40,266 nucleotides of DNA from a virus. Made by a program: the position numbers and the translations under genes. The stretch's first letter is position 1; every line of letters starts with the position of its first letter. The DNA lies in the IMG/VR virus record IMGVR_UViG_3300045988_083036, positions 1-40,266 of that record, one strand, 5' to 3'. Positions 3,070 to 37,591 of this stretch are shown here, piece after piece. The notes beneath the pieces were generated by a model that was given only the letters and a program-made list of their open reading frames with translations, did no database searches and had not been told where the DNA came from.

Positions 3070-3716
3070 AAGTTTTGATAGCCTGCGAGGAGAGCCAAGA
3101 GGTTTGCAAGGCTTTCCGAGCACGAGGGCATGAGGCGTACTCTTGCGACATTCAGGAACCATCTGGCGGTCACCCGGAATGGCACATCCTTGGCGATGCT
3201 CTGTTGCCACTGAGGGGGGGGCAAATTGAGACGATGGATGATAAAGGGCATTACATTGATGCTTGGGACTTGCTCATTGCGCACCCGCCCTGCACATACC
3301 TGAGCAATGCCGGCGCACGGCATCTCTGGAAAGGGCACCAGCTTCAAGCTGACCGCGTGATGTTGGGCATTCAGGGCCGCGACCTGTTTATGCGGTTCTG
3401 GTGGGCAGATGTGCCGAGAATCTGCGTGGAAAATCCCGTGCCGAGTAAGGTTTTCTGTCTGCCACCGTATACGCAAGCTGTGCAACCGTATGAGTATGGA
3501 CACCCATACAGCAAGAAAACTTGCCTTTGGCTGAAGGCTCTGCCGCCACTATTCCCAACCGATATTGTGGAGCCTGTGGCTACATGGTGTCCGTCCGGCT
3601 CTTACGCACATAAGCATGATGAGCGCAACAAGGGTATGTTTACCACTGACCGCGCTAAAAATCGAGCAAAAACATTCACCGGAGTTGCGAAAGCTATGTC
3701 TGAGCAATGGGGATGA
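3066..3716 (+). CDS. Minimal C5-cytosine-methyltransferase-like protein (216 aa, no obvious target-recognition domain)
   Basis: N-terminus MKVLIACEESQEVCKAFRARGHEAYSCD. It has a PC-type motif (AHPPCTYLS) and an ENV-like motif (ICVENPV). Confidence 0.55.
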   Translation: MKVLIACEESQEVCKAFRARGHEAYSCDIQEPSGGHPEWHILGDALLPLRGGQIETMDDKGHYIDAWDLLIAHPPCTYLSNAGARHLWKGHQLQADRVMLGIQGRDLFMRFWWADVPRICVENPVPSKVFCLPPYTQAVQPYEYGHPYSKKTCLWLKALPPLFPTDIVEPVATWCPSGSYAHKHDERNKGMFTTDRAKNRAKTFTGVAKAMSEQWG

Positions 3717-5081: not shown

Positions 5082-5574
5082 AAGTGAGAATGAAAAGCCT
5101 CCCCAGAATAAAAAAGCGCAGCTAGTCAGAGGGTGGTTTGAGCGCCTGCCCCGGATGCGGGAACAGATACAGCAGCAGGAAGAACGCATTGTAGATCTGC
5201 AGTGCATTGCTACCGCGACCACATCTAACGTCTCATCTGCACCCGGACGTTCTGGAACCAGCGATAAGGTGGGAAATGGAAGCACTGCAATCGTTGAAGC
5301 AAAGGAAAAGCTCGCTGCACTCAAGTGCGAGTACGTAGAAATGCAGAAAGCGGCAATTGATACGGCATACCTGCTGAACGCTGACCAAGCGTCAATCCGC
5401 CGCAGCAAGTGCATCATCCTGTGCTATGTAGAGGGCAAGACGCGCGAGCAGGCCGCTGCTGAGGTGGGCTTTGCACAGGCACATACGGCATCCAGAGCAA
5501 TTACAGCCGGGTTTGAAGCCCTTGCGGAGATCTGGGAAGCAACGCCTTTTTGCAATTTTGACGAAAGCGCATAA
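5059..5574 (+). CDS. Putative late-gene transcriptional activator (ArpU/RinA/DUF1492-like, sigma-70 region-4-like HTH)
   Basis: AAGGAG RBS. C-terminal HTH IILCYVEGKTREQAAAEVGFAQAHTASRAI. It is the last early gene before the packaging module. Confidence 0.55.
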   Translation: MARRWTPESENEKPPQNKKAQLVRGWFERLPRMREQIQQQEERIVDLQCIATATTSNVSSAPGRSGTSDKVGNGSTAIVEAKEKLAALKCEYVEMQKAAIDTAYLLNADQASIRRSKCIILCYVEGKTREQAAAEVGFAQAHTASRAITAGFEALAEIWEATPFCNFDESA

Positions 5575-5779
5575 AAATCACGCATTTTTTTGTATTGCTT
5601 CGGGTATGTATGCGGTATGTACAGACACCATGAAAAAGTGATTCAATAATATCATCGGCAAAGCCGTAAAGGCAAACCGATCTGCGCAGTCTCCGAAACG
5701 AACCTCCCAAAAATGCTTCCTCCAAAGGAAAAGGCTTGACCGGCATTTTTCTTCCTCTCGTTTCGCGGGCTGCTTCTAT

Positions 5780-5856
5780 GTTCCGGTAGCTCAACTGGTA
5801 GAGCAGCAGCCTATTGAAGCAGCAAGTAGTTGGTTCAAATCCATCCCGGAACACCA
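5780..5856 (+). tRNA. tRNA-like gene with an 8-nt anticodon loop (CTATTGAA) and encoded CCA
   Basis: Acceptor stem GTTCCGG/CCGGAAC and D arm GCTC-AACTGGTA-GAGC. T arm GTTGG-TTCAAAT-CCATC has one T.T mismatch. The anticodon stem GCAGC/GCAGC has a central A.A. Confidence 0.6.
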
Positions 5857-6258: not shown

Positions 6259-6394
6259 GCCGCCATAGCTCAATTGGGAGAGCGCCGCCCATTTAAGGCG
6301 GGACAACGTTGGTGACACCACGGGAACATCACTGCACAGCCAACCACTGCGCACATCCATTCCGCGGGTGCTGGTTCAAATCCAGCTGGCGGCA
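6259..6394 (+). tRNA. tRNA-like gene interrupted by a 68-nt insertion between the anticodon stem and the T arm; loop CATTTAA (A at position 33)
   Basis: Acceptor stem GCCGCCA/TGGCGGC and D arm GCTC-AATTGGGA-GAGC. Anticodon arm CCGCC-CATTTAA-GGCGG. An insert occupies 6302-6369, followed by a perfect T arm GCTGG-TTCAAAT-CCAGC. Confidence 0.5.
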
Positions 6395-9394: not shown

Positions 9395-10830
9395 TGTTCG
9401 ACAAGCTGATTTCATGGCTGCGAGAAAAGGCACGGCAGCTGTTCGGGGAAAATACGACCGTGAGCGCGAACATTTCCGCGCCAATGGAAAAATCTGTTGA
9501 GCTTTGGGCGGATATGTACGACACCGGTGGGCCGTGGTGCCACAGCCTCAAATCCGGCGACACACTGCACGGTATCGGGCTGCCGCAGAGCATTGCAAGC
9601 GAACTTGCACGGCTGACAACCATTGAGATGGAGTGCGTTGTATCCGGTGGAGAGCGTGCGGGCGCAATCAATGAAATCATTCAGCCGTTTGTTGAAACTT
9701 TGCGTGCACCGGTGGAATACGGTTGCGCCTTGGGCGGCATCCTGTTCCGCCCGGTCATGGCAGCAGATGGAACGATCAGTATTGACGTAATTCAGGGCGA
9801 CAGCTTTTGTCCGACCCATTTCGACAGCACCGGGCGGATGACCGGCGCGATCTTCTCCGAGCAGCTTGTAAAGGGAAATAAAATCTATACCAGGCTGGAA
9901 AATCATGAATACACCGACAGCAAGTATATTGTTGAGGTCAAGGCGTTCCGCTCGATGACCACGGCAGACATCGGCCTAGAGGTTCCGTTGACCGATGTTC
10001 CTGAGTGGGCAGACATCTCCCCTACCAGCATTGTGGACGGCGTTGACCGGCCCTTGTGGGGCTATTTCAAGGTGGCGACAAGCAACACGGTTGACCGCAG
10101 GTCGCCTTTGGGAGTAAGCGTGTATGCCAACGCGGTCAAGCTGATCCGGGATTGTGATGAGCAATACGGGCGGTTGCTGTGGGAGTACGACGGTGGGCAG
10201 CTGGCTCTTGATGTAGATCAGACCGCACTGCGGCCCACTCCAGACGGCGGTTCTGCGTTGCCACAGCGGGAACAGCGGCTCTATCGTAACTGGCTGAACG
10301 GCAGTTACGGGCAGACAGGGCGCAATCTGTACGAGGTGTTTGCTCCCTCCCTGCGAGACGAGAACTACCGACGCGGTCTGGATACCATCCTCAAGCGGAT
10401 CGAGTTCCAGTGCGGCCTTGCATACGGCACGCTGTCCGACCCGCAGAACGTGGACAAGACCGCCGAGGAGATCCGCAGCAGTAAGCAGCGGAGTTATACC
10501 ACAGTCAAGGACTTGCAGCGGTCGCTCAAAATTGCCGTTACAGACCTGATCTATGCCATCGATGCACTTATGACGTCCGCATGGCAGCAAGGCGCAGCGG
10601 TTGTTTCCCCGGGGGATTATGATGTGACATTCGATTTTGACGATTCGATTGTCTCCGACCCAAAGGAGCGCAAACAGATGTTCTGGGGTTACGTCACCGC
10701 TGGAAAGTTCCCATTCTGGCGGTATCTGGTCGAGTTTGAGGGGTACAACGAAGACGAAGCCAAGCAGATCGAGGCAGAAGCAAAGGAGAGCGCACAGCAA
10801 CCCGGGCTTGAGTTTGGCGGTGGTGCTTAA
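9394..10830 (+). CDS. Portal protein
   Basis: TGATG coupling to terL and a GGAG RBS. A 478-aa protein lying between terL and the head-morphogenesis gene. Confidence 0.85.
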   Translation: MFDKLISWLREKARQLFGENTTVSANISAPMEKSVELWADMYDTGGPWCHSLKSGDTLHGIGLPQSIASELARLTTIEMECVVSGGERAGAINEIIQPFVETLRAPVEYGCALGGILFRPVMAADGTISIDVIQGDSFCPTHFDSTGRMTGAIFSEQLVKGNKIYTRLENHEYTDSKYIVEVKAFRSMTTADIGLEVPLTDVPEWADISPTSIVDGVDRPLWGYFKVATSNTVDRRSPLGVSVYANAVKLIRDCDEQYGRLLWEYDGGQLALDVDQTALRPTPDGGSALPQREQRLYRNWLNGSYGQTGRNLYEVFAPSLRDENYRRGLDTILKRIEFQCGLAYGTLSDPQNVDKTAEEIRSSKQRSYTTVKDLQRSLKIAVTDLIYAIDALMTSAWQQGAAVVSPGDYDVTFDFDDSIVSDPKERKQMFWGYVTAGKFPFWRYLVEFEGYNEDEAKQIEAEAKESAQQPGLEFGGGA

Positions 10831-26383: not shown

Positions 26384-26455
26384 GGCTATGTAGCTCAGTT
26401 GGTAGAGCAGGGCGTTACACCGCCTATTGTCGCTGGTTCAATTCCAGCCATAGCA
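26384..26455 (+). tRNA. tRNA-like gene (Val-UAC-like) whose best anticodon stem leaves a 6-nt loop (TTACAC); G1.A72 mismatch, no CCA
   Basis: D arm GCTC-AGTTGGTA-GAGC and T arm GCTGG-TTCAATT-CCAGC are perfect. The anticodon stem GGGCG/CGCCT is shifted by one nucleotide. Confidence 0.5.
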
Positions 26456-26537
26456 AGCCCGAAAATGCTTGAACGGTTTTGAATAGTGCGCATACGTCAA
26501 AATTGCGATAGCAGAAGTAGGCATTTTTAGTTGATAC

Positions 26538-26586: not shown

Positions 26587-26660
26587 AATCCCCTGCTTCG
26601 CCGAAGCCCTGCGTTCCACGCGGGTACTTTATAGGCAAAGTGGGGGATTGTTTTATTCGC
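26587..26660 (+). ncRNA. Compact four-way-junction (cloverleaf-like) RNA followed by a T tract
   Basis: The closing stem is AATCCCC/GGGGATT. It encloses GCTTC-gcc-GAAGC, CCTGCG-ttcca-CGCGGG and ACTTT-ataggc-AAAGT. GTTTTATT follows. Confidence 0.4.
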
Positions 26661-32962: not shown

Positions 32963-33592
32963 TCAGATCGCATTCTTCTTTGCATCCGAAGCGGCCATAA
33001 TTTTTCTTACAAGCTCGGCATCATCTGGAGATAGACTGCTCAAATCTATCTCTCCGGCGGTGCTGGGCTTTTCTTTTTGCTCAGGTGCAGCCGGGGCGAG
33101 TACGGGGGAAGGATCATCGGTTTCGCCGTTCAGGTATGCAGCGGTCGTGTGCAGCTCTTTCGCCCAGACCTCAAGGATTTCAGGCTTCACGTTCTTCGTC
33201 CGGCGCAGGTTGCTTCCTGCCTTATCCGGCATGCCGACCATCTTATATAGGTGAGCCTGTGTTTTGCCTGACTTTTGGCAAAGGGCATAGAATCTATCAA
33301 ACTGGAATGAGCCATAGTCAACATCGAGCGGTGACGTTGTCAGGCCATCGTCTATATCATCCACGAGACCATTTATGTACTCAACAGATGTGCCAAGGAT
33401 TTCTGCGATAGCAGGTAGATATTTCGATGGAACATTAGCATTTCTGCCAGAAATCTCTGAAAGATAGCCATTGCTCTTTCCAATCTGCTGACTGATAAAG
33501 TTTAGCTTTAGGCCCCTCATCTTTGCGATTTCTCGAATTTTCACGATATTCCCTGCATTTTGGATGGGGTTTCCACCTGTTGTCTGGCCCAT
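32963..33592 (-). CDS. CI-like repressor with two XRE-type HTH domains
   Basis: HTH motifs IREIAKMRGLKLNFISQQIGKSNGYLSEI and FYALCQKSGKTQAHLYKMVGM. A GGAGG RBS lies 8 nt before ATG 33592. The gene is divergent from the early promoter. Confidence 0.75.
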   Translation of the reverse strand: MGQTTGGNPIQNAGNIVKIREIAKMRGLKLNFISQQIGKSNGYLSEISGRNANVPSKYLPAIAEILGTSVEYINGLVDDIDDGLTTSPLDVDYGSFQFDRFYALCQKSGKTQAHLYKMVGMPDKAGSNLRRTKNVKPEILEVWAKELHTTAAYLNGETDDPSPVLAPAAPEQKEKPSTAGEIDLSSLSPDDAELVRKIMAASDAKKNAI

Positions 33593-33651
33593 GAAGTACA
33601 CCTCCGAAATACAAAAAGCAGAAAAGGAAAGAAAAAAGTTTAGAAACAGTA

Positions 33652-33680
33652 TTTACAATTCTGTGATAAAGTAGTATAAT
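33652..33680 (+). promoter_or_regulatory. Early promoter copy A
   Basis: TTTACA-17 nt-TATAAT, inside a block of about 55 bp that is repeated at 36230-36285. Confidence 0.7.
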
Positions 33681-33759
33681 AAAAACAGAAAAACAGTTGT
33701 TTCCTACAAAGATATTACCACCAAAGAAGTAATAAATCAATAACAAAGAGGTAAAAAAC

Positions 33760-34005
33760 ATGAAAGACTTCAACTTGAAAATCTCCGAGATCAAGAAGGC
33801 AGAGCGGTTCGCAGCAAAGGAATCTGGAAAGACCTGCTTCCTTGCAGCTATGAGCTATTCCGGCGCTGATGTGTTCGGTTGGCAGGATGTGCTCTGCGAG
33901 ATGGACAGTGCCGAGAGCGGCGAGTATGTCAGCACTGTTCACCTTTGCGTTTACATGAACGACCGCCGCCGGTCTTATGTGGCCCGCGTAATGCCCACTG
34001 TTTGA
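33760..34005 (+). CDS. Hypothetical early protein (81 aa)
   Basis: First ORF after promoter A, with a GAGG RBS. Confidence 0.6.
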   Translation: MKDFNLKISEIKKAERFAAKESGKTCFLAAMSYSGADVFGWQDVLCEMDSAESGEYVSTVHLCVYMNDRRRSYVARVMPTV

Positions 34006-34025
34006 TGATGAAAGGAGAGCTGAAC

Positions 34026-34277
34026 ATGAACGCACTTTCTATCAACATCCCCGCAAACTTCGCTGCAGATTGCAATAACACCCTCAAGCGGTACAACGCC
34101 GCCCAGACCGACGCCGAGCGCCGTGCGGTGCTTGACCGCCAGACGGTGCAGGGCCTGTGTTGGGCGCTCAAGTTCGTCTGCCAGCTTCAGACCGCTTACA
34201 TGAGTGAGAAGGAGCTGAAGCACGCGATCCGCCTCACCCACTTCCGCGGCACTGTATGCCCGGAGTTTAAGGCTTGA
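34026..34277 (+). CDS. Hypothetical early protein (83 aa)
   Basis: AAAGGAGA RBS. ATG 34026 lies inside ORF 33879..34277. Confidence 0.6.
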   Translation: MNALSINIPANFAADCNNTLKRYNAAQTDAERRAVLDRQTVQGLCWALKFVCQLQTAYMSEKELKHAIRLTHFRGTVCPEFKA

Positions 34278-34293
34278 AAGGGAAATCTATTGA

Positions 34294-34361
34294 CCCGCCT
34301 GATGATGGCTGCCCGGCAGCAGCCGAAACCATCCCGGTAACGTCACCGGGATGGTCGCGGG
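34294..34361 (+). ncRNA. Hammerhead ribozyme motif, type I topology (HH-1); predicted cleavage after C34356
   Basis: The fold reads CCCGC | CUGAUGA U | GGCUGC-ccggca-GCAGCC | GAAA | CCAUCCCGG-uaacguca-CCGGGAUGG | UC / GCGGG. Confidence 0.75.
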
Positions 34362-34398
34362 AACCACCGCAAACAATCAATAATCGGAGGTATGAAAA

Positions 34399-35325
34399 AT
34401 GTCTGCAAATGTTGAAACGATGTTCTATGTCCGGGAGAAGCCTTGGCACGGTCTGGGAACCATGGTGCAGGAAGCACCCACCAGCGCAGAGGCGCTGAAG
34501 CTGGCCGGTCTGGACTGGACTGTCGAGGCCCGCGATATGTGGCTGAACGGCGGCTATGAGCCGATTCCCGGCTACAAGGCAAACGTCCGTAGCTCGGACA
34601 ACAAGGTTCTGGGCGTGGTCAGCAACAAGTACCGCATCGTCCAGAACGCGGAGGCTTTCGCGTTCACAGATGCGCTGATCGGCGGCGATGTCCACTATGA
34701 GACCGCTGGAAGCCTACTGGACGGTAAGAAGATTTGGCTGCTGGCAAAGCTGCCAGATTCCGAAATCTGCGGGGACAAGACCGAAACCTATATGTGCTTC
34801 TCCAACACGCATGACGGATCCGGCGCCGTCCGCGTCTGCATGACCCCGGTTCGCGTGGTCTGCAACAACACGCTGAACCTTGCGCTAGATACCGCGCAGC
34901 GAGCATGGAGCGTCCGTCATGTAGGCGATATCAACACTAAGCTGGTAGAGGCCCGGCAGTGCTTAGACATGGCCAATAAGTACATGGATGAACTTGCAAC
35001 CCGCGCCGACCAGATGGCAAACACCACGGTCAACGATGCACGGCTGCGGGAGGTTCTGGACAGCCTGTTCCCGGAAGCGGACGATATGACCGACCGCCAG
35101 AAGCGCCATGTGCAGGACATGAAGGACGGTTACATGGTCTGCATGATGGCTCCTGACCTCGTGAAATTCCGCAATACCGCATGGGGCGCGGTGAACGCAA
35201 TGAGTGATTTTGTCACCCACAGCGCCCCTCACCGGAACACGAAGAATTATCAGGAAAACAACTGGAACAACGTAATGAACGGACACTTCCTGATGGATGC
35301 CATGGCAAAGGCCGTCACCCGGTAA
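34399..35325 (+). CDS. DUF932 / phage-plasmid-like protein (TIGR03299-type)
   Basis: N-terminus MFYVREKPWHGLG...; 308 aa. Confidence 0.7.
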   Translation: MSANVETMFYVREKPWHGLGTMVQEAPTSAEALKLAGLDWTVEARDMWLNGGYEPIPGYKANVRSSDNKVLGVVSNKYRIVQNAEAFAFTDALIGGDVHYETAGSLLDGKKIWLLAKLPDSEICGDKTETYMCFSNTHDGSGAVRVCMTPVRVVCNNTLNLALDTAQRAWSVRHVGDINTKLVEARQCLDMANKYMDELATRADQMANTTVNDARLREVLDSLFPEADDMTDRQKRHVQDMKDGYMVCMMAPDLVKFRNTAWGAVNAMSDFVTHSAPHRNTKNYQENNWNNVMNGHFLMDAMAKAVTR

Positions 35326-35379
35326 ATATTTGATGGCTGTGCTATCTGGCCTAACGGGCGCTTTTGGAGGAACTGAAAG

Positions 35380-35922
35380 ATGTCTGATTCTATCGGAAAG
35401 AAAATTCGTGCAGCACGAAAAGACGCTCACATCACGCAGATTCAGCTTGCCCAAAGAATGGGTGTGACCAAGCAGACGGTGAGCCTGTACGAGAATGGCG
35501 GGGTCAATCCGACGGCCAAGATGCTGGCCAAGTTCGCAGCTGGGCTGAAAGTCCCTGTTGGCTTTTTAGCCGGTGACGAAGAGGGGCAGCTTGCTGGACG
35601 GTGGGTCAGCGTCAAAGTGCGCCTGCCAGAGCTGGACGAGGACGAACCATTTGCCCGCTGCATTGTGAATGTCATTCGGTGGTGTGAGGGCTGGACAGGC
35701 CCTTGGAACCAGCCGGAACCCGACTTGAATGAAGAAGAGTTCACTGCTGCCGCTGCCTATAACCCGGAGCAGAAAACTTTCACAGTGTATGATGGCTTTG
35801 GCGGCTCGATGGTGATAAACGCTCTACTCGACCCGAACGATTTTAGCGGTTCATCCGGTATGCGAATCACCCACTGGATGGAACTTCCCGCAACCTTTGG
35901 ATTCTGGGAGGCACCTCGATGA
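35380..35922 (+). CDS. XRE-type HTH fused to DUF551
   Basis: HTH motif IRAARKDAHITQIQLAQRMGVTKQTVSLYENG, followed by RWVSVKVRLPE...THWMELP. Confidence 0.7.
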   Translation: MSDSIGKKIRAARKDAHITQIQLAQRMGVTKQTVSLYENGGVNPTAKMLAKFAAGLKVPVGFLAGDEEGQLAGRWVSVKVRLPELDEDEPFARCIVNVIRWCEGWTGPWNQPEPDLNEEEFTAAAAYNPEQKTFTVYDGFGGSMVINALLDPNDFSGSSGMRITHWMELPATFGFWEAPR

Positions 35923-36152
35923 AACAATACTGCCGGTACTGCTGCAACGCCTGTCTGAACGATGACGAGCTGGCCTATTGCAGCTACAAAGACGAGATGC
36001 TAGACGGCCCTGCCCTGCGGCGGCTGAATCACTGCAAGGGCTTCCAGTTCTGCGAGATTGATGTCTTGACCCAAACCCGTATCTACAAACCCAGATCCGC
36101 AAAGCCTCCCTCTGAGGACCCAGAGGATTTCGGGCAGCAAACCCTGTTTTGA
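35919..36152 (+). CDS. Cys-rich hypothetical protein (77 aa)
   Basis: It begins MKQYCRYCCNACLNDDELAYCSYK...NHCKGFQFCE. Confidence 0.55.
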   Translation: MKQYCRYCCNACLNDDELAYCSYKDEMLDGPALRRLNHCKGFQFCEIDVLTQTRIYKPRSAKPPSEDPEDFGQQTLF

Positions 36153-36160
36153 TGGGCGAA

Positions 36161-36183
36161 ACCGGCGCTTCCGGTATTTTTTT
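36161..36183 (+). terminator. Short GC hairpin with a T7 tract
   Basis: ACCGG-cgctt-CCGGT followed by ATTTTTTT. Confidence 0.5.
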
Positions 36184-36236
36184 GGCTTTCCTTTAGAAAA
36201 ATCGAGAAACAATACAGATAAAATACAGAAAAGGTA

Positions 36237-36265
36237 TTTACAAATCTGTAATAAAGTAGTATCAT
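36237..36265 (+). promoter_or_regulatory. Early promoter copy B
   Basis: TTTACA-17 nt-TATCAT. The flanks repeat promoter A (atttacaa.tctgt.ataaagtagtat.ataaaa.cagaaaaacagt). Confidence 0.65.
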
Positions 36266-36308
36266 AAAAGCAGAAAAACAGTGTCCCACAAAACAGGAGG
36301 AACAGAAA

Positions 36309-36533
36309 ATGAAATTCTATTATGACGGCGTTCTAATCTGCTGTGCAAAGGTCAAAGAGTACAAATACGCAGTTGTCTATCCGGACAGCAAGAAAGTATG
36401 GGCGATGCATTCCCGGCATTGTTCCTTGGAGGCTGCCCAAGAGTTGCTCAAACGGGTAAAGCGCGGAATGTCCTTTTACGACCCAGAAAAGGCCGCATCG
36501 CTGCGTGTTGTCCCGCTTGAAAAACGTGCTTAA
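36309..36533 (+). CDS. Hypothetical protein (74 aa)
   Basis: First ORF after promoter B, with an AGGAGGA RBS. Confidence 0.6.
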   Translation: MKFYYDGVLICCAKVKEYKYAVVYPDSKKVWAMHSRHCSLEAAQELLKRVKRGMSFYDPEKAASLRVVPLEKRA

Positions 36534-36534
36534 C

Positions 36535-36601
36535 CCCATCTGATGATGGCCCTGTGGCAAGGGCCGAAACCACCCGGCAGCCAGCCGGGCAAGGTCGTGG
36601 G
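36535..36601 (+). ncRNA. Hammerhead ribozyme motif, type I topology (HH-2); predicted cleavage after C36596
   Basis: The fold reads CCCAU | CUGAUGA U | GGCCC-uguggcaa-GGGCC | GAAA | CC-a-CCCGGC-agcca-GCCGGG-caa-GG | UC / GUGGG. Confidence 0.7.
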
Positions 36602-36630
36602 AGCCACCCACAGAAAGGAGAACCGATATC

Positions 36631-36858
36631 GTGTCGAAGTATTACACCACCAAAGAAACTGCCAAAGCGCTTGGCGTATGTCAGGCAAGGGTCCTTCAGC
36701 TCAGGAAGCAGGGCCTGCTGGACGCTTATTCTCACGGAGAGAAGGGCAGCAAGAGCAAGTTCTACTTCCTCGCTGATGACGTTGAGCACTACAAGCAGAG
36801 CCGAGACAACCCGGAGCAGCCGCCGTTACGCAAGGTCAGCACCAAGGAGACCGCCTGA
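36631..36858 (+). CDS. Excisionase/MerR-like HTH protein (GTG start)
   Basis: Motif YTTKETAKALGVCQARVLQLRKQGLL. AAAGGAG RBS. Confidence 0.6.
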   Translation: MSKYYTTKETAKALGVCQARVLQLRKQGLLDAYSHGEKGSKSKFYFLADDVEHYKQSRDNPEQPPLRKVSTKETA

Positions 36859-36948
36859 TGAACGGGCGTAATAAGTACTGGCGGGAAGCCCGCTGGGACA
36901 AGAACCAGCCTGCACGGCTGGCACACATCAAAGAAAAGAGGTCGAAGC

Positions 36949-37206
36949 ATGATGAAGGTCATACAGGGCAGCTTCCGGCAGATTCCGTACTGGAAACTTC
37001 GGGGCCGGTTCCACAGCTGCGGCTACCGCGATCAGGAAGTCGCTAAGTATATCGGCATTGGCCGGGACACCATGAGCGGCAGGATGCAGGGGCACAATCC
37101 GTGGACAAGCGCAGAGATCACAGCAATGTGTGAACTGCTGGACATCCGACAGGATGAGATCGGGGAACTGTTTTTCCCCTCACTTGAGAAAGGAGAATCC
37201 GCATGA
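36949..37206 (+). CDS. Small phage regulatory/HTH-like protein (85 aa)
   Basis: AAGAGG RBS. Motif EVAKYIGIGRDTMSGRMQG. Confidence 0.55.
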   Translation: MMKVIQGSFRQIPYWKLRGRFHSCGYRDQEVAKYIGIGRDTMSGRMQGHNPWTSAEITAMCELLDIRQDEIGELFFPSLEKGESA

Positions 37207-37490
37207 AGCTCAAATCTACTACTTACTACTGGTTGGCTGCCATTTTTGGTGGCGTTGGAATGGGCACAGCTATGGGCGCAGAGGGCACCGCTCAGACCAC
37301 CGGATACATCTCCGGCGCACTGTTTGCTGTGTCGCTGGTGCTGATTCTGGCTGCTGTTCTTCTGGCTCGTCTGGGCTTTGCCGCAGAGGACAGGGAGAAA
37401 GCCACAAATCGGTGCAAGTACGGCAAGATCAACCGCACCCACGCCCGCCCCCAAGAGCCGGAGTACCGGCAGAACCGGAGGGACGCATGA
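37203..37490 (+). CDS. Small membrane protein (2 TM segments)
   Basis: Hydrophobic segments YYWLAAIFGGVGMG and ALFAVSLVLILAAVLLA. Confidence 0.55.
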   Translation: MKLKSTTYYWLAAIFGGVGMGTAMGAEGTAQTTGYISGALFAVSLVLILAAVLLARLGFAAEDREKATNRCKYGKINRTHARPQEPEYRQNRRDA

Positions 37491-37591
37491 AAAAAGCCCG
37501 CCGGTGCGCCAACACCGACAGGCTGCAAGGGTTGATGGAATTTGAAAGCCCCATCACCCCGATGATATCACAAAATCGGAGGTTTTTACAG

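What the first reader, a model, noticed from the sequence alone, without database searches (positions are those of the whole stretch)
33652..36601. Duplicated regulatory module: repeated early promoter, then small leader ORF(s), then a hammerhead, then the downstream operon, with a possible post-cleavage 5' hairpin switch
The same layout occurs twice.

1. A block of about 55 bp carries TTTACA-17-TATAAT (33652-80) in one copy and TTTACA-17-TATCAT (36237-65) in the other.
2. One or two small ORFs follow each block.
3. A hammerhead then starts within 1-17 nt of the stop codon.
4. The RBS of a longer operon follows (DUF932... in one case, Xis-like... in the other).

In both copies the 3' strand of stem I can instead pair with the nucleotides that follow it. 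HH-1 gives GCGG-gaacca-CCGC and HH-2 gives GUGGG-agcca-CCCAC. This would leave the 3' cleavage product with a 5'-OH and a terminal hairpin just upstream of the RBS. That hairpin also covaries between the two copies.

Together this suggests ribozyme-mediated uncoupling of leader ORFs from downstream genes, with different mRNA stability or translation for each part. I do not know this to be characterised in phage early operons.
Basis: inference. Interest (0 to 1): 0.8.

Follow-up and report, generated by a model that had tools for sequence, protein, structure and literature searches.

The report
Phage hammerheads with product-capping hairpin
Two early operons of a temperate gut phage each carry a self-cleaving hammerhead RNA between their first small genes and the rest of the operon. 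The cut should leave the downstream message starting with a small hairpin, a conserved extra on an already known kind of phage ribozyme.

Summary
A 63-nt block (86% identical) carrying TTTACA-17-TATAAT/TATCAT occurs exactly twice. Each copy is followed by small ORFs, a hammerhead, an RBS and a longer operon.

Both hammerheads have a complete catalytic core. A covariance model built from relatives less than 75% identical to them scores them at 65 and 49 bits; the next best hit in the window scores 15. They belong to the prophage-associated type I pseudoknot hammerheads described in 2011. That mRNA processing gives fragments of different stability has already been proposed in the literature.

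- The hairpin "loop" is the pseudoknot strand that pairs with loop II.
- The hairpin is family-wide and covaries. It is present in 28 of 63 sequence clusters, against 10.4±2.6 expected.
- The two folds are nearly isoenergetic.

The layout recurs in two related phages. Their promoter-proximal ORFs are unrelated or only partly shared. Their promoter spacers are phage-specific but match within each phage, which points to shared operators. The "leader ORFs" are ordinary conserved small genes.

My best model is cleave-and-protect processing, a natural analogue of RiboJ. Cleavage itself and its effects on expression are untested.

The parts
32963..33601 (-). Divergently transcribed repressor-like gene (212 aa)
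   Evidence: PHROG phrog_8 transcriptional regulator, E 1.1e-11. Weak HTH_3 match. 60% identical homologue at the same position in L029.
33635..33697 (+). Promoter/operator block P1 (-35 TTTACA 33652-57, -10 TATAAT 33675-80)
   Evidence: Direct repeat D1, 63 nt, 86% identical to the P2 block. 11/12 consensus match. The spacer is phage-specific but shared with P2.
33760..34005 (+). orf81, promoter-proximal small gene
   Evidence: ORF list. No Pfam or PHROG match. 97.5-100% identical protein in L029, L100, L033 and L032.
34026..34277 (+). orf83, second small gene of unit 1
   Evidence: ATG at 34026 preceded by GAAAGGAGAG. 80-98% identical homologues in 8 loci.
34294..34361 (+). HH-1, type I hammerhead. 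Stem I 34294-98/34357-61; CUGAUGA 34299-305; extra U 34306; stem II 34307-12/34319-24; GAAA 34325-28; stem III 34329-38/34345-54; U16.1-C17 34355-56; cleavage between 34356 and 34357.
   Evidence: Sequence. MFE equals the hammerhead fold, -40.1 kcal/mol, z -4.7. Model R1 scores 65.0 bits, E 1.6e-17.
34357..34370 (+). HH-1 product hairpin GCGG-GAACCA-CCGC (pseudoknot strand 34362-66; second copy of the stem I 5' strand 34367-70)
   Evidence: -7.9 kcal/mol. The uncleaved alternative fold is -39.8 against -40.1 for the hammerhead fold. Family covariation.
34386..35325 (+). RBS GGAGG (34386-90) and DUF932 gene (34399-35325)
   Evidence: Pfam DUF932, E 8e-59. phrog_1221.
35380..36152 (+). HTH_3 regulator (35380-35922) and orf77 (35919-36152), the end of unit 1
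36161..36183 (+). Intrinsic-terminator-like hairpin ACCGGCGCTTCCGGT followed by a T run, between unit 1 and P2
   Evidence: An equivalent terminator sits before P2 in L029 and L113.
36220..36282 (+). Promoter/operator block P2 (-35 TTTACA 36237-42, -10 TATCAT 36260-65)
36309..36533 (+). orf74, promoter-proximal small gene of unit 2
   Evidence: 74% identical homologue in L081, where it lies downstream of a hammerhead. Replaced by unrelated ORFs in L029 (87 aa) and L113 (116 aa).
36535..36601 (+). HH-2, type I hammerhead. Stem I 36535-39/36597-601; CUGAUGA 36540-46; extra U 36547; stem II 36548-53/36560-65; GAAA 36566-69; stem III 36570-78/36584-94 with an internal loop; cleavage between 36596 and 36597.
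   Evidence: Sequence. MFE equals the hammerhead fold, -33.0 kcal/mol. Model R1 scores 48.9 bits, E 1.2e-12.
36597..36611 (+). HH-2 product hairpin GUGGG-AGCCA-CCCAC. Nucleotides 36603-36607 pair with loop II 36554-36558 in the 5-bp pseudoknot.
   Evidence: -8.0 kcal/mol. The uncleaved alternative fold is -35.7 against -33.0 for the hammerhead fold (pseudoknot not counted).
36617..36858 (+). RBS GGAG (36617-20) and GTG-initiated HTH_17 / excisionase-like gene (36631-36858), the first gene of the downstream operon
   Evidence: Pfam HTH_17, E 2.4e-9. PHROG matches to excisionase families. 86-92% identical homologues behind the equivalent hammerhead in L024, L029 and L084.

Best explanation
The region is the early-gene control region of a temperate phage, probably of a Clostridia (Oscillospiraceae or Faecalibacterium-like) host.

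Two co-directional early promoters, P1 and P2, carry the same phage-specific operator sequence. They are therefore switched together by the phage's own repressor, whose gene lies divergently at 32963-33601. Each transcript begins with one or two small accessory genes of variable content, followed by a type I pseudoknot hammerhead.

The ribozyme folds during transcription: stem I, loop II paired to the 3' tail, and a complete core. It cuts after C34356 (HH-1) and after C36596 (HH-2).

Cleavage makes stem I intermolecular. A second copy of the stem I 5' strand, lying 5-6 nt downstream, then captures the new 5'-OH end in a 4-5-bp terminal hairpin. This should do three things:
- release the upstream fragment and make cleavage irreversible;
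- hide the 5'-OH end, which in Bacillota is an entry site for RNase J1;
- give the downstream operon a fixed short 5' UTR with an RBS 15-25 nt further on, whatever lies upstream.

The upstream mRNA keeps the ribozyme body as a structured 3' end.

Shown: sequence membership in the family, covariation of all helices, the pseudoknot and the hairpin, and conservation of the layout. Inferred: promoter and operator function, cleavage in vivo, and every consequence for stability or translation.
For: Ribozyme identity:
- Full core, with the G10.1-C11.1 and A15.1-U16.1 pairs.
- The isolated sequences fold as three-way junctions.
- Model R1, seeded only with members less than 75% identical to the window copies, scores them 65.0 and 48.9 bits. 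The next hit in 40 kb scores 15.1.
- Across 146 distinct relatives, stems I, II and III are 98%, 97% and 95% paired. The covariation score is 0.489, against 0.133 for shuffles and at most 0.08 for slid controls.
- The pseudoknot, which the model does not encode, covaries: pair 30-135 reads UA 35, CG 29, GC 18, AU 9.
- An extra nucleotide between A9 and G10.1 is tolerated, and A10U raises the rate in CChMVd (PMC3705267).

Hairpin:
- The exact reverse complement of product nucleotides 1-4 lies within +7..+26 in 28 of 63 clusters. Control windows give 4, 2 and 3 of 63. Permuting the 4-nt product starts between clusters gives 10.4±2.6, with 0 of 5000 permutations reaching 28.
- The match is specific: GCGG→CCGC 13/25, GUGG→CCAC 8/10, ACGG→CCGU 4/6, with few off-diagonal cases.
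- L043, L041 and L104 show a stepwise compensatory series.
- The hairpin is shorter than stem I in 16 of 23 clusters. The median energy difference between the hammerhead fold and the alternative fold is -0.7 kcal/mol. In the window the values are -40.1 vs -39.8 and -33.0 vs -35.7, pseudoknot not counted.

Context:
- The stop codon lies a median of 2 nt before stem I. The next start codon lies a median of 39 nt after the cut.
- The layout P - ORF(s) - hammerhead - DUF932 ... terminator - P - ORF - hammerhead - xis recurs in L029 and L113, with a different ORF in the P2 slot of L029 and different ORFs in both slots of L113.
- Promoter spacers are phage-specific but match within each phage.

Literature:
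- Prophage hammerheads flanking genes cleave in vitro, and in E. coli when cloned (PMC3088659).
- RNase J1 degrades the 5'-OH product of the glmS ribozyme, and 5' hairpins stabilise Bacillus mRNAs (PMC3997798).
- RiboJ, a hammerhead plus a hairpin, raises expression (PMC6206723).
Against: - No transcript or cleavage data exist for this phage.
- The HH-1 pseudoknot is only 2-3 bp (loop CCGGCA against AACCA; close relatives have AGCCA). Perreault et al. found a 20- to >100-fold loss of rate on shortening a pseudoknot, so HH-1 may be slow.
- For HH-2 the alternative fold is predicted to be 2.7 kcal/mol more stable than the active fold before the pseudoknot is counted. The hairpin could therefore inhibit cleavage rather than follow it.
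- The hairpin is absent from about half of the family clusters, so it is not essential.
- A 4-5-bp hairpin (about -8 kcal/mol) may be too weak to stop RNase J1.
- The host, and therefore its RNase set, is inferred only from related contigs.
- Part of the complementarity (GG/CC) follows trivially from the composition of stem I and the pseudoknot.
- Clusters defined at 80% identity are not fully independent.
Confidence: 0.6

Rival explanations
1. The downstream arm is a pre-cleavage competitor, that is, an off-switch or tuner. By sequestering the stem I 3' strand it confines cleavage to a short co-transcriptional time window. Alternatively it makes cleavage depend on whether ribosomes terminating at the abutting stop codon occlude the stem I 5' strand. 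The fraction of transcripts cut, and hence the ratio of upstream to downstream expression, would then be regulated.
For: The two folds are nearly isoenergetic, and for HH-2 the alternative fold is favoured by 2.7 kcal/mol without the pseudoknot. With downstream sequence included, the MFE uses the hairpin instead of stem I. The stop codon abuts stem I: median gap 2 nt, and 1 nt for HH-2. In many relatives the arm overlaps the pseudoknot strand, so the hairpin excludes both stem I and the pseudoknot.
Against: The hairpin is usually one pair shorter than stem I (16 of 23 clusters). The active fold is on average slightly favoured even without the 4-5-bp pseudoknot. HH-1 lies 16 nt from its stop codon, which I estimate is beyond the reach of a terminating ribosome. 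Stop-codon abutment is also what genome compaction alone would produce.
Confidence: 0.2
2. The hammerheads mainly serve as shared about 70-nt linker sequences at gene-module boundaries. They would promote homologous exchange of modules between phages. RNA cleavage would be neutral or secondary.
For: Hammerheads at least 85% identical sit between unrelated flanks in 158 of 195 pairs. Exchanges are seen on either side (for example L002 vs L070 and L002 vs L013). The two hammerheads within one phage can share stem II exactly (L029).
Against: A recombination linker does not need an intact catalytic core, compensatory changes in three helices and a pseudoknot, or a covarying product hairpin. The high identity is partly forced by the search pattern and the conserved core.
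Confidence: 0.1
3. The hairpin after each small ORF is a protein-binding site, for example a boxB/nut-like antitermination signal or an RNase III site. On this reading it has nothing to do with the ribozyme.
For: The position is reminiscent of lambda nut sites: after the first gene of an early operon, with a 5-bp stem and a 5-6-nt loop (my own knowledge, not tested here).
Against: The loop covaries with hammerhead loop II and the stem covaries with hammerhead stem I. The loop length between the 4-bp arms ranges from 3 to 15 nt across the family. No boxA-like partner was looked for or found.
Confidence: 0.03

Closest known systems
Prophage-associated type I hammerhead ribozymes with a stem I/stem II pseudoknot (Perreault et al. 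2011, PMC3088659)
   Same: Consensus core, open stem I, and loop II paired to nucleotides next to stem I. Intergenic position between prophage genes, with several copies per operon. The proposed role is processing of polycistronic phage RNA.
   Different: The covarying second copy of the stem I 5' strand, which turns the 3' product's end into a hairpin, is not mentioned in the passages of that paper or of the 2019 review that I read. The figures and alignment dataset could not be inspected. Rfam 15 models do not detect this subfamily.
RiboJ synthetic insulator (sTRSV hammerhead plus a 23-nt hairpin; described in PMC6206723)
   Same: A hammerhead placed between upstream transcribed sequence and an RBS. 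After cleavage, a hairpin remains at the 5' end of the message. The expected effects are insulation from upstream context and higher mRNA abundance.
   Different: RiboJ's hairpin is a separate appended element and its ribozyme is type III. Here the hairpin re-uses the stem I 3' strand and encloses the pseudoknot strand, so it is mutually exclusive with the active fold. This is a natural element, and its effect on expression is untested.
glmS ribozyme and RNase J1 decay in Bacillus subtilis (reviewed in PMC3997798)
   Same: Self-cleavage in a 5' UTR leaves a 5'-OH on the coding fragment in a Bacillota host.
   Different: In glmS the exposed 5'-OH end is the signal for RNase J1 degradation, so the gene is switched off. 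Here the 5'-OH nucleotide is predicted to be base-paired, which should have the opposite outcome. No ligand dependence is apparent.
Shared operators at the two early promoters of temperate phages (lambda OL/OR type; my own knowledge)
   Same: Two early promoters carry near-identical repressor-specific sequences, one of them next to the divergent repressor gene. The sequence differs between heteroimmune relatives.
   Different: Both promoters point the same way and a terminator separates the units. Repressor binding is not shown.
Hammerheads with an extra nucleotide between A9 and G10.1 (CChMVd A10, PMC3705267; Penelope-like element hammerheads, PMC4209133)
   Same: A single inserted nucleotide at the same core position. 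U at this position was the most active variant in CChMVd.
   Different: Those are viroid or retroelement ribozymes with loop-loop contacts, not pseudoknot-type phage ribozymes.

Membership tests
Hammerhead ribozyme | Conserved core C3 U4 G5 A6 N7 G8 A9 / G12 A13 A14 / A15.1-U16.1 / H17 | tested here: met
   Both copies read CUGAUGA ... GAAA ... UC. The one deviation is an inserted U between A9 and G10.1, which has precedent and is tolerated (PMC3705267, PMC4209133).
Hammerhead ribozyme | Three helices around the core, supported by compensatory changes; G10.1-C11.1 closing pair | tested here: met
   MFE folds. Across 146 relatives, stems I/II/III are 98/97/95% paired and 16 of 18 stem pairs show changes on both sides. 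Between HH-1 and HH-2, three stem II pairs and two stem I pairs differ; four of these five changes are on both sides and one gives a G-U wobble.
Hammerhead ribozyme | [quoted passage not shown] | tested here: inconclusive
   HH-2: 5 bp (36554-58 with 36603-07). HH-1: only 2-3 bp (and sequence). In the family, pseudoknots of at least 4 bp occur in 70 of 100 sequences against 44.7±3.3 for permutations, and the pseudoknot columns covary.
Hammerhead ribozyme | Match to a curated family model | tested here: not met
   No Rfam 15 hammerhead hit at the gathering score or at E<=10, and none in 9 related loci.
Hammerhead ribozyme | Site-specific self-cleavage giving a 2',3'-cyclic phosphate and a 5'-OH | not testable with these tools
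   Requires in vitro transcription or end-specific RNA-seq.
RiboJ-like ribozyme insulator (works-like comparison) | Ribozyme upstream of the RBS; a hairpin retained at the product's 5' end; downstream expression independent of upstream sequence | tested here: inconclusive
   The geometry is met. Variable upstream ORFs combined with conserved downstream genes fit the idea. The effect on expression is not testable here.
Repressor-controlled early promoter pair | Sigma-70-type hexamers plus an operator sequence shared by the two promoters and specific to the phage's repressor | tested here: met
   Hexamers match 11/12 and 10/12. P1 and P2 spacers are near-identical within the window, within L029 and within L113, but differ between phages. 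The repressor homologue is only 60% identical in L029. Binding itself is not testable.
Leader-peptide / attenuation ORF | A short ORF whose translation, rather than its product, controls the downstream genes | tested here: not met
   The ORFs are 74-83 aa. They are conserved as proteins (orf81 97.5-100%, orf83 80-98%). They occur elsewhere in other positions (orf74 lies downstream of a hammerhead in L081). They are replaced by unrelated ORFs in L113 and, at P2, in L029.

The most novel reading that the evidence does not exclude
The hammerhead plus captured-end hairpin is a natural "cleave-and-protect" insulator. It lets temperate phages of RNase J-containing hosts swap promoter-proximal cargo genes freely, while the core early operons keep a constant, nuclease-resistant 5' end. 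The hairpin would have evolved specifically to escape the RNase J1 attack that ribozyme-made 5'-OH ends otherwise attract, as in glmS. A bolder variant is that the balanced stem I/hairpin competition, together with the abutting stop codon, makes cleavage sensitive to translation of the upstream gene.
Probability: 0.3. Interest if true: 0.75.

Novelty: new variant of a known kind. Interest (0 to 1): 0.5.

Why it matters
The biological role of the many bacterial and phage hammerheads has been open since 2011 and was still described as largely elusive in a 2019 review (PMC6765202).

This locus offers a compact, testable system. It has two co-regulated promoters, each followed by a ribozyme placed between variable cargo genes and conserved core genes. 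It also has a conserved accessory hairpin that makes a directional prediction: the product is protected, which is the opposite of what happens with glmS.

If the prediction is confirmed, it would explain why self-cleaving ribozymes accumulate in phage operons. It would also supply natural, host-adapted insulator parts for engineering Clostridia and other Bacillota.

Tried and rejected
- **Rfam scans.** I ran the whole window at gathering score, 33000-37500 at E<=10, two 106-nt slices, and 9 related loci. None reported a hammerhead. I rejected this as evidence against membership, because clear relatives are missed too and a purpose-built model finds both copies.
- **Weak Rfam hits.** These were twister-sister 34095-34183 (16.8 bits), M23 RNA 36575-36618 (21.3 bits) and several miRNA families. 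All are far below gathering score and I treat them as chance or as generic hairpin-plus-RBS matches.
- **Phage GenBank search of 33400-37200.** It returned only two about 67-69% identical DUF932 matches in unannotated faecal phage records, so it gave no annotation help.
- **Searching relatives for the window's promoter block.** The block is not found in them. The relatives turned out to have their own, different repeated blocks.
- **MAFFT alignment of stem III-deleted constructs (A1).** It could not align the variable-distance downstream arm, so column-based counting of the hairpin was abandoned in favour of permutation tests.
- **A first fuzzy-regex search** timed out.
- **Long-range CUGAU:AUCGG pairing over the HH-1 RBS.** The MFE of the uncleaved RNA predicts it, but it is not conserved in L024 or L029, so I dismissed it.
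- **Leader-peptide and nut-site readings.** I considered both and rejected them (see the membership tests and rival explanations).

Full report
**Observation**

A 63-nt direct repeat (33635-33697 and 36220-36282, 86% identical) carries the two best sigma-70-like sites of the region: TTTACA-17-TATAAT at 33652-33680 and TTTACA-17-TATCAT at 36237-36265. Its 26-nt core occurs exactly twice in the 40-kb window and never in shuffles.

The first block is followed by ORFs of 81 aa (33760-34005) and 83 aa (34026-34277). The second is followed by one of 74 aa (36309-36533).

HH-1 begins 16 nt after its stop codon and HH-2 begins 1 nt after its stop codon. Downstream lie GGAGG and ATG 34399 (DUF932, E 8e-59), and GGAG and GTG 36631 (HTH_17, excisionase-like). 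A terminator-like hairpin plus T run (36161-36183) separates the two units. A repressor-like gene (32963-33601, minus strand; phrog_8) diverges from P1.

**Are these hammerheads?**

Both copies have the full core: CUGAUGA, GAAA and UC before the cleavage site. Both have G10.1-C11.1 and A15.1-U16.1 pairs, a 5-bp open stem I (type I), a 6-bp stem II with a 6-nt loop, and a long stem III. Each isolated sequence folds into the three-way junction as its minimum-free-energy structure.

Rfam 15 reports no hammerhead in four scans of the window. It equally misses all relatives in nine other loci.

I therefore scanned IMG/VR and GTDB genomes for CTGATGATGGC-N8-16-GCCGAAAC. I built a covariance model from 21 members that are less than 75% identical to the window copies. 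With filters off it scores HH-1 at 65.0 bits (E about 1e-17) and HH-2 at 48.9 bits (E about 1e-12). The next hit in the window scores 15.1 bits.

The model finds 151 hammerheads in 100 sources, often several per locus. On the 146 distinct sequences:
- stems I, II and III are 98%, 97% and 95% paired;
- the covariation score is 0.489, against 0.133 for shuffles and at most 0.08 for slid controls.

An independent MAFFT alignment gives the same result for stems I and II. The single oddity is a U inserted between A9 and G10.1. This has precedent in CChMVd, where U at this position was the most active variant, and in Penelope-like-element hammerheads (PMC3705267, PMC4209133).

**The hairpin "loop" is the pseudoknot strand**

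In the family, loop II pairs with the 4-5 nt that follow stem I. Examples are GGAU/AUCC, GACU/AGUC, UGGC/GCCA and UGGG/CCCA. Pseudoknots of at least 4 bp occur in 70 of 100 unique sequences, against 44.7±3.3 after permutation. The columns covary even though the model does not encode them. This is the pseudoknot that Perreault et al. showed to be needed for fast cleavage (PMC3088659).

In HH-2 it is 5 bp (36554-58 with 36603-07). In HH-1 it is only GG:CC, or a 3-bp alternative, because the window has AACCA where close relatives have AGCCA. HH-1 may therefore be slower.

**The post-cleavage hairpin is real and selected**

The first 4-5 nt of the 3' product (the stem I 3' strand) can pair with a second copy of the stem I 5' strand a few nucleotides downstream.

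Sixty-three clusters were defined at 80% identity from both collections. The exact reverse complement of product nucleotides 1-4 lies within +7..+26 in 28 of them. Equal-sized control windows give 4, 2 and 3 of 63. Permuting the 4-nt product starts between clusters gives 10.4±2.6, and none of 5000 permutations reaches 28.

The association is specific:

| First 4 nt of product | Matching downstream arm | Clusters |
|---|---|---|
| GCGG | CCGC | 13 of 25 |
| GUGG | CCAC | 8 of 10 |
| ACGG | CCGU | 4 of 6 |

Off-diagonal matches are few; the largest, GCGG with CCGU in 4 of 25 clusters, still allows a G-U wobble pair. L043, L041 and L104 show the changes accumulating stepwise. The viral and genome sets each show the effect separately.

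The hairpin is usually one pair shorter than stem I (16 of 23 clusters). The hammerhead fold and the alternative fold are nearly isoenergetic, with a median difference of -0.7 kcal/mol. In the window the values are -40.1 vs -39.8 for HH-1 and -33.0 vs -35.7 for HH-2, without counting the pseudoknot.

That balance fits a design in which the active fold, helped by the pseudoknot, forms first. The unimolecular hairpin then wins once cleavage makes stem I bimolecular. About half of the clusters lack the hairpin, so it is an accessory and not a requirement.

**Context**

Across the family the ribozyme starts a median of 2 nt after the upstream stop codon. The next start codon lies a median of 39 nt after the cut. 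These are intercistronic elements.

The window's layout recurs in two related phage contigs:
- L029: P1 2715-43, orf81 and orf83 homologues, hammerhead at 3356, DUF932, terminator, P2 5231-59, an unrelated 87-aa ORF, hammerhead at 5569, xis-like gene.
- L113: the same order, with unrelated ORFs of 190, 84, 63 and 116 aa in the promoter-proximal slots.

Aligning the six promoters shows shared -35 and -10 regions. The 17-nt spacer differs between phages but is nearly identical between P1 and P2 of the same phage. The repressor homologue is only 60% identical in L029. This is the signature of immunity-specific operators shared by two early promoters, which is ordinary for temperate phages.

The small ORFs are conserved proteins (orf81 97.5-100%, orf83 80-98%). 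An orf74 homologue lies downstream of a hammerhead in L081. They are accessory genes, not leader peptides.

Hammerheads at least 85% identical often sit between unrelated flanks. When only one flank is shared, it is the downstream one in 19 pairs and the upstream one in 5. This is weak, non-independent evidence that the ribozyme travels with the gene it precedes.

**Mechanism proposed**

Co-transcriptional self-cleavage separates the cargo cistrons from the core operon. The upstream RNA keeps the ribozyme body as a structured 3' end. The downstream RNA starts with a base-paired 5'-OH nucleotide and a free RBS.

In Bacillota, RNase J1 attacks the 5'-OH product of the glmS ribozyme. There, 5'-terminal hairpins are strong stabilisers (PMC3997798). 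Related hammerheads occur in Faecalibacterium, Oscillospiraceae, Paenibacillus and cyanobacterial genomes.

The engineered RiboJ part, a hammerhead plus a hairpin, has the same logic and raises expression (PMC6206723).

All steps after folding are inference.

**Comparison and novelty**

The following are already published:
- prophage hammerheads flanking genes;
- their pseudoknots;
- their cleavage in vitro and, when cloned, in E. coli;
- the suggestion that they process polycistronic RNA into mRNAs of different stability or translation (PMC3088659, PMC6765202).

Not found in the texts I could read:
- the covarying product-capturing hairpin;
- its energetic balance with stem I;
- the conserved arrangement of a promoter, a variable cargo slot and a hammerhead before core genes.

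Figures and the alignment dataset of the 2011 paper could not be inspected, so prior depiction cannot be excluded. I rate the finding as a new variant of a known kind, of moderate interest.

Noticed in passing
window 26587-26649 (+): Full-length DUF3800-VIII RNA motif (68 bits; gathering score 40.2). It lies 130 nt downstream of an unusual tRNA-like gene at 26384-26456.
   Followed up: no
window 5780-5856, 6259-6394, 26384-26456: Odd tRNA genes. ARAGORN calls one with a 4-base anticodon (attg) and one with a 2-base "anticodon". Rfam's tRNA at 6259-6394 carries a 63-nt insertion and ARAGORN does not call it. These may be recoding or suppressor tRNAs, or an intron-bearing tRNA.
   Followed up: no
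L017, L025, L040, L066, L098, L102, L108, L115, L007, L121, L156 (20-60 nt after the hammerhead cleavage site): A second conserved element follows these hammerheads: ..CCGUCGGCA-nnn-GGGGA..AUCGCCGCC-nnn-UUUU, a hairpin with a conserved loop followed by a U run. It is not present in the window and its function is unknown.
   Followed up: no
L050, L083, L131, L184, L217, L057: Dense hammerhead arrays.
   Followed up: partly
L122, L132, L135, L143, L154, L216, L220, L228, L233 (cyanobacterial genomes): In this variant the 3' product begins GCGGAUUG-[pseudoknot strand]-CAAUCCGC. The result is a 5-8-bp hairpin whose distal part could stack on a 4-bp stem I and present the pseudoknot strand in a closed loop.
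   Followed up: partly
window 34362-34366 (HH-1 pseudoknot strand): The window has AACCA where the closest relatives (L024, L029, L032, L033) have AGCCA. This reduces the HH-1 pseudoknot from 3 bp to 2 bp. L100 shares the change.
   Followed up: partly
window 34095-34183 and 36575-36618: Sub-threshold Rfam hits: twister-sister (16.8 bits, E 7.4) inside orf83, and M23 RNA (21.3 bits against a gathering score of 41.2) over the HH-2 product hairpin plus RBS. Both are probably chance matches.
   Followed up: no
all loci; Rfam 15: The Rfam hammerhead models did not report any of the phage or bacterial type I hammerheads of this subfamily. Annotation pipelines that rely on Rfam will therefore miss them.
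   Followed up: yes
L029 3356-3430 vs 5569-5643; L113 5144-5182 vs 10365-10403: The two hammerheads within one phage are 84-92% identical over 39-75 nt and can share stem II exactly. In the window they differ at three stem II pairs. This suggests exchange or gene conversion between copies.
   Followed up: no
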